DNA of 64,000 nucleotides from an uncultured Poribacteria bacterium. GTDB taxonomy: Bacteria; Poribacteria; WGA-4E; WGA-3G. The DNA is taken from contig OX638351.1 of the NCBI GenBank assembly GCA_951813565.1, forward strand, positions 672,001-736,000, in the 5' to 3' direction. The number at the start of each line of letters is the position of its first letter. Position 1 is the first letter of the stretch. Shown here piece by piece: positions 33,001 to 39,000 of this stretch. The position numbers were made by a program.

Positions 33001-36000
33001 AAATGGTCATTTTACTAATTATTTTGTCTTGTAAATTAATTCTGTGGGAATAAAAGATACGATTGCCTCTGCCTTTAAAAACAAGGTGTCTTCCGTATCG
33101 TGGGCGTTCTTTTTTTTGTAGCAGATTCGCTTCATGGTAAGCTGGAGATGCGATGCGGTCATAAAAAAAAGCAAAAAGCACACAAATAACAAGCGTCACA
33201 ATAAGAACAGGGGTAAGAATTCGGTAGACGCTTATTCCACCTGCTTTCATTGCAACAAATTCGTTATTACGAACCATCCGTCCAAGGACGAAGAAGATAG
33301 CGACAAAACCTGACACGGGGACGATCTCCATAATCCGCCGCGGTGCTTGGAATAGAACGATTTTCACAGCAGCGAAATAAGCGATACCCTCTTCAAAATG
33401 TTTGATATCCTTATCTAATAAACGAACGATGACAACGAGCGCGCTAAAGAAAAAGAAGCCGACGAAAAAGGCTTTGAGGTATTCTTTAATCAGGTACCGG
33501 TCTAAGATATTCAAGCGATTTTTCCTACTTTGCCCATTAAGATTCCGCGTTTCTATTAACAAAAAGCGGAATTTTACGTTCTTTATTATGCCATGCCCTT
33601 AGTTTACCTTCGCTCATCATGCCGGTAAATAGCACTATTCCGAGCACACCGACAACAAGATTTGGAAGCCACATTGCCAAAGCAGGATGGAATTGACCGC
33701 TTAAGCCTGTACTTTGTCCAATCTGAAGCAGTAGGTAATATAGCAGTATAACGGCTAACCCGATACCAAATCCGATCATTCTTCCGTTCTTTTTTACCAT
33801 AAATCCGAGTGGGATGCCGATTATGCTAAATGCTAAGCAGGCAAACGGAAGGGCAAACTTTTTGTGATACTCAACCTTTGCATACCGGAGTCTATTTAAA
33901 GTGTACTCAGATGGTTTTTCAGGTTTTAGGGATTTTTCTAATTTTTTGATATGTGTGTTAAGCTCTCCGATACGCATTGCTTGCGGATGCTGTGTCTTAT
34001 ATTCTCTCCGTTGTAAATCTTCTTTATAGTTGAGAGCGATCTGTTGTTCTTGAAATTGCGTAATTCTGAACCCTTCGGAGCCGTCAGTTAAGGGCTCATA
34101 GGTATGCCCGTCGTAAAGCGTCAATTTGGTACTGCCGCCTTCAAAGCCAAGACTGGCGGATTGTGCGAGAGTGAAGCGCGGTTGCCCCGGAAAAATTTCG
34201 TCCCAGATTCTCACATTCTGTAACCTTTCTGTTTTAGGATCAGTAGATTCGTACATCCAAAGTTTTCCCTCTGTTTCAAGCTCTTTCATGACGGTGTCTT
34301 CTTCCAAAATGAGAGCAGGATTGTGTTTTTGGATGTCGCGTTTAAGTGAAACAGAAGAAAGTGTTGCTCGTGGCAGTACATATTCCATCAGTGCTAAGTC
34401 GACCGCACTTAATATTACAGTTGCGCTCAGGAGGGGTACCATAAGTTGATGGAAACCAACACCATGAGCACGCATTGCCATTATTTCTGAATCTGTAGAG
34501 AGTCGTCCTAATGCCAACAGGATTGCAACTAACGCCGCCATCGGAATTGACAGAACAACCGTTGCAGGCATCACATACAGCAGTGATTCAATCAGATAAA
34601 GGGGGCTTACCCCTTTCTTAACGAAAAGTTTGACTAACCGAAATAGCTCGTCAAAAAGTATGATACAGGTAAAACAGATAAGTGATATTAAAAATGGTGG
34701 AATGAACTCTTTTAGACAATAACGTGACAGTATTTTCATAATTTCTTTTTAACTCTATACACAATTTCGTAGAGCAGATGCACTTGTGAACAGCAAGCAG
34801 ACTTTACATTTATTAATCTCTTTGATTAGACTCCTGCAATCTGGCAGAACACATAAGGCTTAATTTATTATTAGTTGCTTTTTAAGTAAAAAATGTTTAA
34901 AAAATTTGCGTTTTTAATTAGAAATTGTGTTATGGACATGTTATCATGTTAATTATGAACATTACACTGGAATCAATTCAGTTAACTACATCAGATTTGT
35001 CAGAGTATTCTGCCCATCTAAGTTCATCGCAAGAACTTTATTCTCCGACTGCGCCTGCAAAACCTATTGCACAATTCGGTTGGCGTGATCGATGGTGGTT
35101 GAATAATGCGCCTGCGGAACAAGTCGCACTCAATTATTGGTTTTTTCAATCATCTGATGAGGCTTACACTGCAGCTGATGAAGGTCGCCTTCGGTTGTCT
35201 CCGCGAACCATCTCAAAATTCGGTGGACACGAATCTATTTATCAGCCAGTATCCAAAGATCAGGTTGAACTTGGAGATTCAGTGTGGCAGGCGGGACCGA
35301 ATTGGCTTTTCGTTCGAGAGACCGTCGTTGTCCTCGTCGCTGAAATCGGCGGACAAGTTTCCGATGAGACAACCCTGCAAATAGCACGTAAGATTCTTAA
35401 GAAAATTGAAAACGGACTTTAGCAGGACAGATTGATAGATAGAGATACCGTTTAACGTGGCGGAGGTGAGCACGTAACAATCACCACCGCTCTTGTAAAC
35501 GCACTCACCCATAGGATTGATCAATCCATTGTCTGTCCGCTACTGATAGTCTTGATACCAATTTTCAGATTGCGCGGCTAAGCGAATGTTTTCTGTCCCT
35601 CCAAAGTGACGATGTTCAAACCACGGTAACGCGTTTTCTGCTGCTGCATTTGCATTATGGAAATTGGTTGTTGCTTCATTTTCGAGAAATTGCGTGACTG
35701 CCCCAGTGTCAGGATAAAAATCAACAGCATCTTTCCAAATTGCGCGTCCGCATAGGAACCCGCTCGCGCCTGCTGCTGAAGCGAGTTGAACGTTTTCAAT
35801 GAATTCCTCAATATCTACTCCAGCACTTAAAATGACCCACGGCAACGTTGAAGCTTCATCTAATTTCTGACAGACATCTTTAACCTCACTCAAGTCGTAA
35901 GCAGATTCACCCGCATAAAACGCTCGATCTTTATACGCATCCGTGTATTTTAAATCCGCCGGAAATTCTAATTTCAGAATATCAACTTTATAGGATGGGT

Positions 36001-39000
36001 CGGTAAATTCTTCAACACTGCGGATGACCAGGTCCGGTTTCTGCTTCGCAAATCCAACGCTCTTTGTTGTGCCTTCTAAAGCATAGCTCACGAGTTCAAG
36101 TAGAAACGGCAGATCATGTTTCTCACATTCATCTCCAACATGACGGACAAAGGCTTGTTGATGCTGCAGCGTTGCTTCAGAAGCATCGGGATGATAATAT
36201 GCGAGTAGTTTGATAGCGTCTGCGCCTGCCCGCTGTGCTTTTTCAATAGTCCAATTTTCGATTGGGTTGGAGAGCCGCTCATTTTCACTAACACCTTCAC
36301 TCACGTAGCCTGATGCTTCATAAGCCAGAAGTAGCGCTACATCCCGTGGGATCTCCATAATTGAATACGGGTGTCCATAGATAGGGTCAGTCAAAACTGC
36401 TGTAGCATTCGGGGCAAGAATTCGTGTAATTAAAGTTTTTAGCGATGCAACATCAGAATATTTGACATTTGTTTTGTCAATGTCAAGGACTTCTCCAAGT
36501 TTGGTCACCATAGAACCGCGTTGGTCAATCGCCATCATCTTAAACTTTCCGCTTGCGTCGGCGAGTTTCATGAGTCCTCTCAATTTTCCAGATGAAATAC
36601 CAATCGTAGCCATTAAAATAAGTTCTCCTTACTAATATTCGCGTTCAACGAAAAAGTGAATTAGGGATAAAAACAGGTGCTTTGCCCTATTATTTGGAAG
36701 GTGGGCAAAATTCTGATTAAACTTTTGTGCTGCTTCTTGAAGTAGTGTTTTAGAACACTTCTGTGCATATTGAATAGAGTTGTATTTCTGCATCAATTGT
36801 AAGACACTTTGAACGTCAGCTTCCGTTTTTTCAGTTCGTGGTCGTGCCATGATGTCAATAACGTCTTGTGCTTCTGATGGTGTACAGGAATTGAAAAGAT
36901 GGATAAGTACAAGAGTCCGTTTACCTTCACTAATATCCCCTGCGATCTCTTTGCCGTATCTACCAACATCGCCAATTAGATTGAGAACATCATCCTGAAT
37001 TTGGAATGCAACCCCAAGAGATTTTCCGAGTTCAATAAAAACATCAGCTTCTTCAGCACTTGCACCGCCGATGATTGCCCCCACACGACAAGGAGTGATG
37101 CAAGTATACCACGCAGTTTTCTGGATACACATGGTCCAATAATCGTCTTCGTTGAGGTTCCATTGATTATTGTGAACCCAGCTCAGTTCAATGTGTTGTC
37201 CTTCAACGACTTGGTTGCTCAGTTGTATGAATTCGGATAGGATACGGAAGGAGAGTTCGTGTCCGAGGATATCAGTATTTCGGTGAAGCATTTCCCACAT
37301 TTTACAGTGCAGTGCATCTCCGACATTGATAGCCATCGGGATTCCATGTTTTTGATGAAGGCAAGGTTCACCACGTCGAAGTTCAGAACCGTCTTCAATG
37401 TCATCGTGAATGAGAAGCCAATTCTGAAGTAGCTCCAACGCTGCAGCAGTATTGACAGCACGTTCTGCATCTCCACCGAATACCTCGCAGATAAGCAAGC
37501 AGAGTGCGGGTCTTAATCCTTTTCCCGCACGTTGCGGATAATCTAACATCATTTGGTATAACTGATGTACATCCTGATGCTTATGGGTGGTGGGAAGAAA
37601 GTCAAAGATACATGCATCTACTTTGGTTTTGACTTCCTTGAGATAAGCGGTGACGAGGTCTTTTGTTGGTGCTGGTTCACGCCCAGATTTCGGCATGGAT
37701 CTTTTTAATTCCTTTTCCAGTCGGTTCTCCTATAGCTGCATATATCAATTATAAAGTATACCATATTGTGTGGTGAAAATCAAGTTTTTTGTTGAATAGG
37801 CAGGGTTATTTAGTTTTAAGAATTATCAGTTACTGAGTTTTACTGTGAGTTTATATCGTCCGTCGGGTAGCGCTTACGAAACCCGACAAATGCCAAAAAG
37901 CGCACTTGACGTTGATTTGGACATGGTAGTAGGCACGCGCCGCTTTCCGTCCGAAAGCCAAGAAATTACGGCACACGGCGTGTGCCTACTACTTTGCATC
38001 GCACATCTTTTTTGTAAGTTGAGGCTATGGATAGAGTGATAGCGAAACCCGACCACAATGCTGCTATAAAACATTAACGTTTGTGATGAAATACGCCAGA
38101 AAAACCGAAAACTAAATAACCCTATTGGATAGGTATGTACAGTTTTTGTAGATTGTCTGAACCAAGATTTGCAAGATTATAGGATTTCCAAGATTAGTCT
38201 TATGCTGTGCGGATGCTCACCATCCTGTAAATCTGGAAATTCTGATAATCTTGGTTCAGACAAGGATAAAACCTTGTAATACCAATTCTAATAGAAAACG
38301 TATCATTACAGAGATTTACTGGGATTTTGAAACTCGACGAATGTGAATGTAAGAGGCGCAATGAATTGCGCGACTACAAACACGTTTTTTGTTAATGATG
38401 ATCTATCATTCAGAAATGGTATAATATCGGACTTACAAAGTCCTCCTACAAGAAAGGGGCGCGACAATCTATTAAAATGTGGATAGAATTGGCGCGTAAT
38501 CTATGATTCCGTATTGTGGTCAAGATCGAGGGCGATGAAACGAAATCCGGTGGGTTTGAGTTTTTCAACGAGGGTGGTGCGCAGTTCAAGTACACGCGTA
38601 AACTCAGAATCGGACACTTGTATTCTTAAAACCGGTTTATGGTCAAATAGTGTGGCACTTTTAATATTGAATTCTTCAATAAGTTGCTCCGCTTGCTCCA
38701 AAGCAGAAAGTGCTGGTTGGATTTCCATATTATGTGCGTTTTCTCCAGTCACTGCCTGCCATAAATCCACCATCAACGAACACCATTTGTCCGGTAACAA
38801 AATCTGATGCGTTAGATGCAAAGAAAATCGTCAATCCTGCTAAATCTTCCGGTTCACCCCAGCGATATGCGGGTGTGCGGTTAAGAATCCATTCGTTTCG
38901 GCTATCTTCTCGCGCGGGGGCGGTCATCTCTGTCCGGATAAATCCAGGTGCAATCCCGTTGACTTGGATATTATGCTCTGCCCATTCAACAGCAAGCAGT

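What a model noticed while it worked through the whole genome (the two positions that open the first line are those of the whole stretch)
35540..36613. Pyrophosphate-driven glycolysis with a LacD-type aldolase in place of FBA, no pyruvate kinase and no transaldolase
The genome lacks class II and eukaryote-type class I FBP aldolase, pyruvate kinase, transaldolase, FBPase, G6P dehydrogenase and soluble pyrophosphatase. It has PPi-PFK (GGDD motif, g03050), PPDK (g01007), a membrane Na-PPase (g04112) and a tagatose-bisphosphate aldolase (LacD, g00641). LacD is the likely stand-in for FBA in family WGA-3G.
Evidence so far: Table scan. In the same 21 genomes: FBA II 0 of 8 WGA-3G, transaldolase 0 of 8, PK 0 of 8; LacD 8 of 8 WGA-3G and 0 of 13 others, 10 of which have FBA II. 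Enzyme assignments in call 169. Search 170 found no such description.
(Added by a program. Inside this text positions count along the whole contig: contig position 672,001 is position 1 of the stretch shown here. "Call 12" and the like, gene names such as g00115 and contig names such as C1 are that model's own, and its searches are not shown. The text may have been shortened before it was handed on; [...] marks where a part breaks off. The agent that wrote the report below was given it as the finding of a first reader that could run no searches.)

Follow-up and report, generated by a model that had tools for sequence, protein, structure and literature searches.

The report
Tagatose-type aldolase serving core glycolysis
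A large family of sponge-associated bacteria has lost every known version of the sugar-splitting enzyme at the centre of glycolysis and appears to use a relative of a lactose-breakdown enzyme instead, a swap that gene order suggests also happened in several other uncultured bacterial groups, though the activity has not been measured.

Summary
The gene (35540-36613, minus) is an intact class I aldolase of the PRK12858 LacD-like subfamily, but it fails the lacD equivalog cut-off. The gene losses hold at far larger scale than reported. Of 100 family genomes, none has class II FBA, eukaryote-type class I FBA, FBP aldolase/phosphatase, pyruvate kinase, transaldolase or family I pyrophosphatase; 98 have this aldolase in one copy, 99 PPDK, 100 PFK. 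Sister lineages mostly fill the slot with other FBA types. New evidence: outside Poribacteria the same clade sits directly beside pfk in 9 of 20 genome loci and 18 of 69 metagenome loci, including pfk-aldolase-gap, aldolase-pfk-gap and pgk-glpX-aldolase orders. G000 has no recognised tagatose-6-phosphate or sulfosugar pathway. Best reading (0.8): a housekeeping FBP aldolase that probably also cleaves sedoheptulose bisphosphate in place of transaldolase, within a Clostridium thermocellum-type pyrophosphate glycolysis, here in a genome with a heme-copper oxidase. The pyrophosphate scheme is known; a LacD-type sole glycolytic aldolase was not found in the searched literature. No activity has been measured. 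Corrections: the gene is not restricted to this family, and it is not LacD proper.

The parts
35540..36613 (-). LacD-like (PRK12858 subfamily) class I Schiff-base aldolase, 357 aa; proposed housekeeping FBP/SBP aldolase. K214 Schiff-base lysine, E173 acid/base, S263/R290 1-phosphate site, D30-Q31-R32-G33-S34 and E99-x-S101-G102-Y103/R113 as in LacD
   Evidence: families, PDB sequences; model pLDDT 96.2; LacD Z 43-45, rmsd 1.4-1.7; 8TNF Z 44.1; YihT Z 34; residue conservation and mapping
36625..36630 (-). Shine-Dalgarno-like AAGGAG in the 18-nt gap between idsA and the aldolase
   Evidence: Sequence shown; function inferred
36632..37696 (-). IdsA-like polyprenyl diphosphate synthase, the conserved upstream neighbour, probably co-transcribed; a housekeeping rather than sugar-catabolic context
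   Evidence: PF00348 E 6e-64; adjacent in 57 of 59 genome loci and 11 of 11 metagenome loci at >=62% identity to the window protein, and in G140, G063, G052

Best explanation
The protein is the housekeeping, reversible fructose-1,6-bisphosphate aldolase of this family (FBP <-> DHAP + GAP through a K214 Schiff base), a non-orthologous replacement drawn from the LacD-like clade. With no transaldolase or phosphoketolase, it probably also cleaves sedoheptulose-1,7-bisphosphate (S7P + PPi -> SBP by PPi-PFK; SBP -> DHAP + E4P), closing the non-oxidative pentose phosphate pathway. It works in a pyrophosphate economy: PPi-PFK in both directions (no FBPase), PPDK in place of pyruvate kinase, and a membrane Na-PPase in place of a soluble one. 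Shown: fold, catalytic residues, gene inventory, distribution, gene order. Inferred: FBP and SBP cleavage, PPi use by the PFK, flux directions. The SBP part is less certain (about 0.65) than the FBP part.
For: (1) Only aldolase of any FBP-capable family found in G000: one PF01791 match, no paralogue in an hmmsearch --max of 12,803 ORFs, none of the other types. The rest of the EMP set is present: PGI-like, pfk, tpi, gap, pgk, gpmM, eno. (2) Retained in single copy in 98 of 100 family genomes; the misses are 73% and 93% complete. (3) Complementarity in the order: f2 FBA II 10 of 10; f3 genera g9+g11 eukaryote-type class I 21 of 21, with no PF01791 match; g7 an FBPA/P-like protein 4 of 4; G140, G052, G063 LacD-like with no FBA II or eukaryote-type class I. 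(4) Outside Poribacteria it lies directly downstream of a family A pfk in 9 of 20 genome loci (7 over the PPi-PFK NF041103 cut-off, 1 truncated, 1 ATP-type), and 8 of those 9 genomes show no class II FBA. Orders pfk-ald-gap (L069, L101), ald-pfk-gap (L238), ald-pfk (L203), pgk-glpX-ald (L219) are confirmed by family scans; 18 of 69 non-Poribacteria-like metagenome loci are pfk-adjacent. These loci fall in three parts of the tree, around the Poribacteria clade. (5) No GatZ/KbaZ, LacAB, AgaS, YihS or LacC-grade kinase in G000. (6) The active-site segments match Firmicutes LacD, not YihT or the 8TNF/Rhizobiales type. LacD is reported to cleave FBP (PMC12266140, passage citing LowKam 2010) and has a structure with FBP bound (5F2G title); YihT has no FBP activity (PMC8006165 passages). 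(7) Xylose isomerase, ribokinase, gnd, tkt, rpe, rpiA and DAHP synthase are present while TAL and phosphoketolase are not, so an SBP route is needed; it is described for C. thermocellum (PMC10339645, PMC7657619 passages).
Against: No assay of any member of this clade was found. In Poribacteria the neighbour is idsA, not a glycolytic gene. The clade coexists with class II FBA in G100, G045, G139 and in 5 of 20 non-Poribacteria genomes, sometimes as the adjacent gene (L047, L079, L094, L177), and beside a tagatose-kinase-like PfkB in 5 of 69 metagenome loci (below cut-off), so some members may have other roles. 8 of the 9 pfk-linked genomes also carry an FBP aldolase/phosphatase, and their completeness was not given. 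The pfk-linked loci are largely kin (Chloroflexota and allies), and one origin of the linkage is not excluded. 39 of 69 metagenome loci showed no panel gene adjacent (some have short flanks). The best PDB sequence match is 8TNF, titled a sulfohexulose-1-phosphate aldolase (213 bits against 173 for LacD). G080 (91% complete) shows none of the four aldolase families, so an unrecognised type cannot be ruled out.
Confidence: 0.8

Rival explanations
1. It is a catabolic tagatose-1,6-bisphosphate aldolase (galactose or GalNAc from host glycans), and FBP is split by an unrecognised enzyme.
For: Database name and fold. G000 has a second, below-cut-off NagB-family paralogue at C1:1091726-1092457 that could make tagatose-6-phosphate, and galactokinase without a detected GalT. 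Distant clade members sit beside a tagatose-kinase-like PfkB plus class II FBA (L213, L227).
Against: Fails TIGR01232, NF009065 and NF003180 cut-offs. No LacAB, AgaS or GatZ. The four PfkB proteins score 91-148 bits or less on the tagatose kinase model against a cut-off of 420. Housekeeping context and 98 of 100 retention. Needs an unknown FBA as an added assumption. A side activity on TBP is compatible with the best explanation.
Confidence: 0.08
2. Its main job is another DHAP-releasing cleavage: the missing IolJ step of myo-inositol catabolism (2-deoxy-5-keto-gluconate-6-phosphate), or a sulfohexulose-1-phosphate as proposed for 8TNF and shown for YihT.
For: G000 has IolC and IolD over cut-off (C1:1635319-1638317) with no class II IolJ and no DUF2090 domain other than a weak hit on this protein. 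8TNF is the top PDB sequence match.
Against: Not linked to iol or sulfosugar genes in the 160 loci screened with IolC, IolD, YihS, YihU and YihV (PfkB-family hits aside). No YihS in G000. The DQRGS and ExSGY segments differ from 8TNF (DQRPP, EEHRF) and YihT (DQREA, DEFIP). The Paracoccus Merri PF01791 protein was not induced on sulfofucose and the pathway proved ED-type (PMC12421959 passages; that this protein is 8TNF is my inference). A secondary DKGP activity is plausible alongside the FBP role.
Confidence: 0.07
3. Upper glycolysis carries little flux through an FBP aldolase: sugars go by Entner-Doudoroff-like or oxidative routes, and the aldolase serves only gluconeogenesis or a minor role.
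For: Eda (TIGR01182 over cut-off), two IlvD/Edd-family dehydratases and gnd are present.
Against: No zwf; the dehydratases are only about 30% identical to Edd. Gluconeogenesis and pentose use still require FBP/SBP aldol chemistry, so this changes the direction of flux rather than the substrate.
Confidence: 0.05

Closest known systems
Firmicutes LacD, class I tagatose-1,6-bisphosphate aldolase (TIGR01232; PDB 3KAO, 3MHG, 5F2G)
   Same: Same fold (Z 43-45, rmsd 1.4-1.7) and same residues at all but two of 25 active-site-region positions compared with the Bacillus protein; reported to accept FBP.
   Different: 30-38% identity; below the equivalog cut-off; no lacABC, aga or PTS context; here apparently the only FBP-capable aldolase, whereas LacD is an accessory catabolic enzyme beside a dedicated FBA (recalled).
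PRK12858/NF009498 Rhizobiales-Paracoccus type (PDB 8TNF) and YihT sulfofructose-1-phosphate aldolase
   Same: Same subfamily model (8TNF type) and fold; conserved Schiff-base lysine and 1-phosphate site (K214, S263, R290 align with YihT K193, S226, R253).
   Different: Those genes follow a PfkB kinase in sugar-uptake operons and differ in the DQRxx and ExxGY segments; YihT does not cleave FBP.
Pyrophosphate-dependent glycolysis with SBP pathway of Clostridium thermocellum (also Entamoeba histolytica)
   Same: PPi-PFK, PPDK, no pyruvate kinase, no transaldolase, no G6PDH, no soluble PPase, membrane PPase, PEPCK (PMC7657619 and PMC10339645 passages; PEPCK-GTP in G000).
   Different: C. thermocellum uses a class II aldolase (recalled; the passages read name it only as FBA/Aldoa) and is an anaerobe with a malate shunt. 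G000 has a heme-copper oxidase subunit I, has gnd, shows no MaeB-type malic enzyme (MaeA type not tested), and uses the LacD-like enzyme.
Recognised FBP aldolase types: class I (PF00274), class IA FbaB/DhnA, class II (PF01116), FBP aldolase/phosphatase (PF01950)
   Same: Same proposed reaction; Schiff-base TIM barrel like class I (Z about 27.5 to rabbit aldolase).
   Different: Not a member of any of them. A 2025 glycolysis review (PMC12965863, passages; first 300,000 of 383,257 characters held) lists these types and has 0 occurrences of 'tagatose'.

Membership tests
DeoC/LacD class I aldolase family (PF01791), PRK12858 subfamily | Profile score above curated cut-off | tested here: met
   PF01791 117.8 > 23.8; NF009498 336.9 > 184
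DeoC/LacD class I aldolase family (PF01791), PRK12858 subfamily | TIM barrel with Schiff-base Lys, acid/base Glu and 1-phosphate site | tested here: met
   Model pLDDT 96.2 (41), Z 45 to LacD; K214, E173, D30, K135, S263, R290 invariant in 89 homologues; E173 aligns with the Glu-to-Gln site of 5F2G/5F2I
LacD equivalog (tagatose-bisphosphate aldolase) | TIGR01232 / NF009065 / NF003180 cut-off | tested here: not met
   190.6 < 432.2; 224.8 < 458; 216.5 < 519
LacD equivalog (tagatose-bisphosphate aldolase) | Tagatose-6-phosphate pathway genes (lacAB, lacC, agaS or gatZ) in operon or genome | tested here: not met
   a NagB-like paralogue of unknown role remains
LacD equivalog (tagatose-bisphosphate aldolase) | TBP cleavage | not testable with these tools
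   Needs an assay
YihT / sulfo-EMP aldolase | Linkage to SQ isomerase and SF kinase; YihT-type sequence | tested here: not met
   No yihS hit in G000 (43); 26% identity; segments differ
Functional FBP aldolase (EC 4.1.2.13) | FBP cleavage or rescue of an FBA-null strain | not testable with these tools
   Inferred from distribution and gene order only
C. thermocellum-type PPi glycolysis | PPDK present, pyruvate kinase absent | tested here: met
   PPDK 99 of 100, PK 0 of 100 family genomes (80, 22)
C. thermocellum-type PPi glycolysis | Membrane PPase present, soluble PPase absent | tested here: met
   Na-PPase over cut-off in G000 only; PF00719 0 of 100; DHHA2 absent in G000; HAD-type PPases not tested
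C. thermocellum-type PPi glycolysis | PFK uses PPi | tested here: inconclusive
   GGDDT and KTIDND match the NF041103-positive L073 enzyme and differ from E. coli GGDGS/GTIDND, but the protein passes no NCBIfam cut-off; the motif rule is recalled
SBP bypass of transaldolase | No transaldolase, with transketolase, Rpe and Rpi present | tested here: met
   TAL 0 of 100; tkt, rpe, rpiA in G000; no phosphoketolase in G000 (49)
SBP bypass of transaldolase | PFK phosphorylates S7P and the aldolase cleaves SBP | not testable with these tools
   Needs assays

The most novel reading that the evidence does not exclude
The clade is an unrecognised further type of glycolytic FBP/SBP aldolase, misannotated as tagatose-bisphosphate aldolase, that fills the 'missing FBA' hole in Poribacteria, Dehalococcoidia and other Chloroflexota, Bipolaricaulota, Fraserbacteria and others. 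In WGA-3G-family Poribacteria it alone carries glycolysis, gluconeogenesis, the transaldolase bypass and perhaps inositol breakdown, in an oxygen-respiring cell run on pyrophosphate. Firmicutes LacD may descend from this housekeeping lineage, which would explain its loose C4 stereospecificity; its placement is unresolved between my two trees, so that last part is much less sure than the rest.
Probability: 0.55. Interest if true: 0.78.

Novelty: new variant of a known kind. Interest (0 to 1): 0.64.

Why it matters
If right, a core step of glycolysis is carried by an enzyme type that annotation pipelines label as lactose or galactose catabolism. Metabolic reconstructions of an abundant sponge symbiont family, and of several uncultured phyla, would then show a false gap in glycolysis and a false tagatose pathway. 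It adds a candidate to the short list of FBP aldolase types and extends pyrophosphate-based glycolysis without pyruvate kinase or transaldolase to an apparently respiring heterotroph. It can be tested cheaply by expression and complementation in laboratory E. coli.

Tried and rejected
Single-sequence fold failed (pLDDT 36.7); the alignment-based model was used. Promoter and terminator scans were at chance level (7 against 7.9 expected; 2 against 3.4). GC3 of the gene is unremarkable (0.369 against genome mean 0.389, sd 0.044) and says nothing on expression. No RNA holder was listed, so no reads were laid. Hidden FbaB/DhnA, FBPA/P, short transaldolases, GatZ epimerase route and phosphoketolase route were all tested and not found in G000. 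The two PF00459 proteins score best as HisN-like and HAL2-type nucleotidase, not class IV FBPase. The 891-aa PpsA-like protein passes no cut-off and was not counted as a PEP synthase. The single PF00596 hit is a weak rhamnulose-1-phosphate-aldolase-like protein and was not considered an FBA. The ~290-aa PF01791 protein of g7 is LsrF-like, not FbaB (G038 checked). The PF00274 check on 5 of the 9 pfk-linked genomes found none, but no control rang in that call. The careful IQ-TREE run did not finish; the quick tree on 47 hand-picked rows of 118 is reported; near-identical Poribacteria rows were thinned and 2 broken or short rows skipped before the trees; no one-clade test was run. Literature: searches showed no description of a LacD-type sole glycolytic aldolase or of this Poribacteria inventory (listings and abstract starts seen). 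PMC8546597 and PMC5087111 have 0 occurrences of 'aldolase'. LowKam 2010, Kamke 2013 and Podell 2019 were not held (identifiers partly recalled), so what they or their supplements say is unseen. Four look-ups in earlier findings returned nothing.
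Full report
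Observation. The ORF at 35540-36613 (minus) encodes 357 aa, starts at ATG 18 nt after the stop of a polyprenyl synthase gene, and has AAGGAG 11 nt upstream. It scores 337 bits on NF009498/PRK12858 (cut-off 184) but only 190.6 on the lacD equivalog TIGR01232 (cut-off 432.2). An alignment-based model (pLDDT 96.2) matches LacD structures at Z 43-45, 8TNF at Z 44.1, YihT at Z 34 and eukaryotic FBP aldolases at about Z 27.5. Close homologues are named Poribacteria by their sources.

Active site. D30, Q31, R32, K135, E173, K214, S263, G289 and R290 are invariant in 89 homologues. K214, S263 and R290 align with K193, S226 and R253 of YihT, the Schiff-base lysine and phosphate site, and E173 with the glutamate mutated in 5F2G/5F2I. 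In the segments DQRGS and E-x-S-G-Y/R113 the protein matches Firmicutes LacD and differs from YihT (DQREA, DEFIP) and from the 8TNF/Rhizobiales type (DQRPP, EEHRF). That these segments govern binding of the 6-phosphate is my inference from recalled class I structures. LacD is reported to accept FBP (PMC12266140, passage citing LowKam 2010; the original was not held), and YihT does not (PMC8006165 passages).

Gene inventory of G000 (95.17% complete, one contig). Not found by profile search: class II FBA, eukaryote-type class I FBA, FBP aldolase/phosphatase, pyruvate kinase, transaldolase, PPase families I and II, FBPase III, GatZ, LacAB/RpiB, phosphoketolase. Because those searches use a first-look filter, I repeated most of the key ones by unfiltered tblastn with E. 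coli and relatives' proteins; there were no hits for fbaA, kbaY, gatY, fbaB (three versions), four transaldolases, PK, zwf, ppa, fbp, glpX, deoC, agaS, yihS or galT. A profile of the aldolase itself finds no paralogue among 12,803 ORFs. Present: a divergent PGI-like protein, pfk, tpi, gap, pgk, gpmM, eno, PPDK, PEPCK-GTP, Na-PPase, tkt, rpe, rpiA, gnd, xylose isomerase, ribokinase, glycerol kinase, DAHP synthase, Eda, IolC, IolD and a heme-copper oxidase subunit I. The PFK has GGDDT and KTIDND, like a PFK that passes the PPi-type equivalog, and unlike E. coli PfkA, but it passes no cut-off itself.

Distribution in the phylum (151 genomes, a sample; kin are not independent). In the own family (100 with G000): LacD-like 98, one copy each; FBA II 0; class I 0; FBPA/P 0; PK 0; TAL 0; PPase I 0; PPDK 99; PFK 100. 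Among the other 51: f2 has FBA II in 10 of 10; f3 genera g9 and g11 have eukaryote-type class I in 21 of 21 and no PF01791 match; g7 has an 845-aa-frame FBPA/P-like protein in 4 of 4 (below cut-off in the one scanned); f5-f9 have FBA II in 11 of 11. The LacD-like gene also occurs in at least 6 of the 51: G140, G052 and G063, next to idsA and without FBA II or eukaryote-type class I (G140 and G052 each have a second, uncharacterised PF01791 protein), and G100, G045 and G139, which also have FBA II. G080 (91% complete) shows none of the four families.

Gene order elsewhere. A scan of named genomes kept the best 80 of 492 loci. 59 are at least 62% identical to the window protein, and 57 of these have idsA adjacent; the 2 misses end within 800 nt upstream. 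Of the other 21, one is a Poribacteria f6 genome. Of the remaining 20, 9 have a family A pfk directly upstream (Dehalococcoidia 5, Chloroflexia 1, a record labelled Acidobacteriota 1, Bipolaricaulota 1, Fraserbacteria 1), two of them followed by GAPDH; 1 follows a class II FBA; 2 precede deoB; 8 had no panel gene adjacent on the same strand. Eight of the 9 pfk-linked genomes show no class II FBA, but 8 of 9 have an FBP aldolase/phosphatase, which is a gluconeogenic enzyme (PMC12965863 passage); their completeness was not given. In a quick IQ-TREE tree of 47 rows the glycolysis-linked loci fall in three places (SH-aLRT 100, 99, and sister to the Poribacteria clade at 80), with different gene orders; one origin is not excluded. 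Firmicutes LacD is sister to the whole group in FastTree and nested on a very long branch in IQ-TREE, so its position is open.

Mechanism. Shown: a complete class I aldolase; the only detected candidate for the FBP step in a genome with the rest of the EMP pathway; retention like a core gene; replacement by other FBA types in sister lineages; glycolytic operons in relatives; no recognised tagatose or sulfosugar feed. Inferred: it cleaves and forms FBP. Pentoses can enter (xylose isomerase, ribokinase, gnd) with no transaldolase or phosphoketolase to recycle S7P, so PPi-PFK plus this aldolase most likely run the SBP bypass described for C. thermocellum (PMC10339645, PMC7657619 passages). PEP to pyruvate goes by PPDK; no MaeB-type malic enzyme or PEP carboxylase was found, and a MaeA type was not tested. 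IolC and IolD lack a recognised aldolase partner, so a side activity on DKGP is possible.

Against. No member has been assayed. Some relatives coexist with, or sit next to, class II FBA or a tagatose-kinase-like gene, so the clade is probably not monofunctional. A NagB-like paralogue could supply tagatose-6-phosphate. The best PDB sequence hit is titled a sulfohexulose-1-phosphate aldolase, although the matching paper found its PF01791 protein uninduced and the pathway ED-type (PMC12421959 passages; the identity with 8TNF is inferred from the strain name).

Novelty. The pyrophosphate scheme is a known kind, here in a new phylum and an apparently respiring host. A LacD-like sole glycolytic aldolase was not found in ten searches of the open-access library, but Kamke 2013, Podell 2019 and LowKam 2010 could not be read and most subscription papers are not covered. 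Verdict: observation confirmed, interpretation supported and widened; new variant of a known kind; confidence 0.8; interest 0.64.

Noticed in passing
G000:C1:1635319-1638317 (L061:5320-8318): IolC and IolD over cut-off with no IolJ or fused DUF2090 aldolase in the genome; the inositol aldol step is unassigned.
   Followed up: partly
L029-L032 (genus g7, e.g. G007:C1:3541036-3543030): An 845-867 aa open frame with repeated, divergent FBP aldolase/phosphatase (PF01950) segments in 4 of 4 genomes that lack PK and other FBA types; looks like a tandem fusion of unknown activity.
   Followed up: partly
L105, L136, L228, L232-L235: A subclade precedes phosphopentomutase deoB; L105 has DQRD in place of DQRG (15 of 112 clade rows have D there). 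It may act on a monophosphate such as deoxyribose-5-phosphate.
   Followed up: partly
L094:3855-7143; L047:3644-5941; L079:3860-6071: The LacD-like gene lies directly beside a class II FBA (idsA-aldolase-cbbA in one Poribacteria record), possibly a transitional state before loss of one of them.
   Followed up: partly
G000:C1:1711005-1712483: 6-phosphogluconate dehydrogenase over cut-off although no zwf was found; the source of 6-phosphogluconate is unexplained.
   Followed up: partly
G000:C1:946395-947645 and 1091726-1092457: Galactokinase without a detected GalT, and a second below-cut-off NagB-family protein; the galactose and GalNAc routes are unclear.
   Followed up: partly
G000:C1:1361616-1363049 (L067): The only PGI candidate is highly divergent (PF00342 E 1.4e-8; below all NCBIfam PGI cut-offs).
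   Followed up: partly
G000:C1:1830613-1833288 (L064): 891-aa PEP-synthase/rifamycin-phosphotransferase-like protein (PRK06241 type) below all cut-offs; function unknown.
   Followed up: partly
window 30111-30863 and 30890-31585 (-): Two tandem paralogous secreted-looking proteins ending in 'GKLAVSWAQMKKYY'; the one scanned has no Pfam match.
   Followed up: no
window 34925-35422 (+): Convergent 165-aa ORF with no Pfam or NCBIfam match, conserved downstream of the aldolase in the family loci that were listed.
   Followed up: no
phylum scans: Family f2 is the mirror image (PK 10 of 10, PPDK 0 of 10); genus g7 lacks PK yet has a soluble PPase; lower glycolysis varies widely within one order.
   Followed up: no
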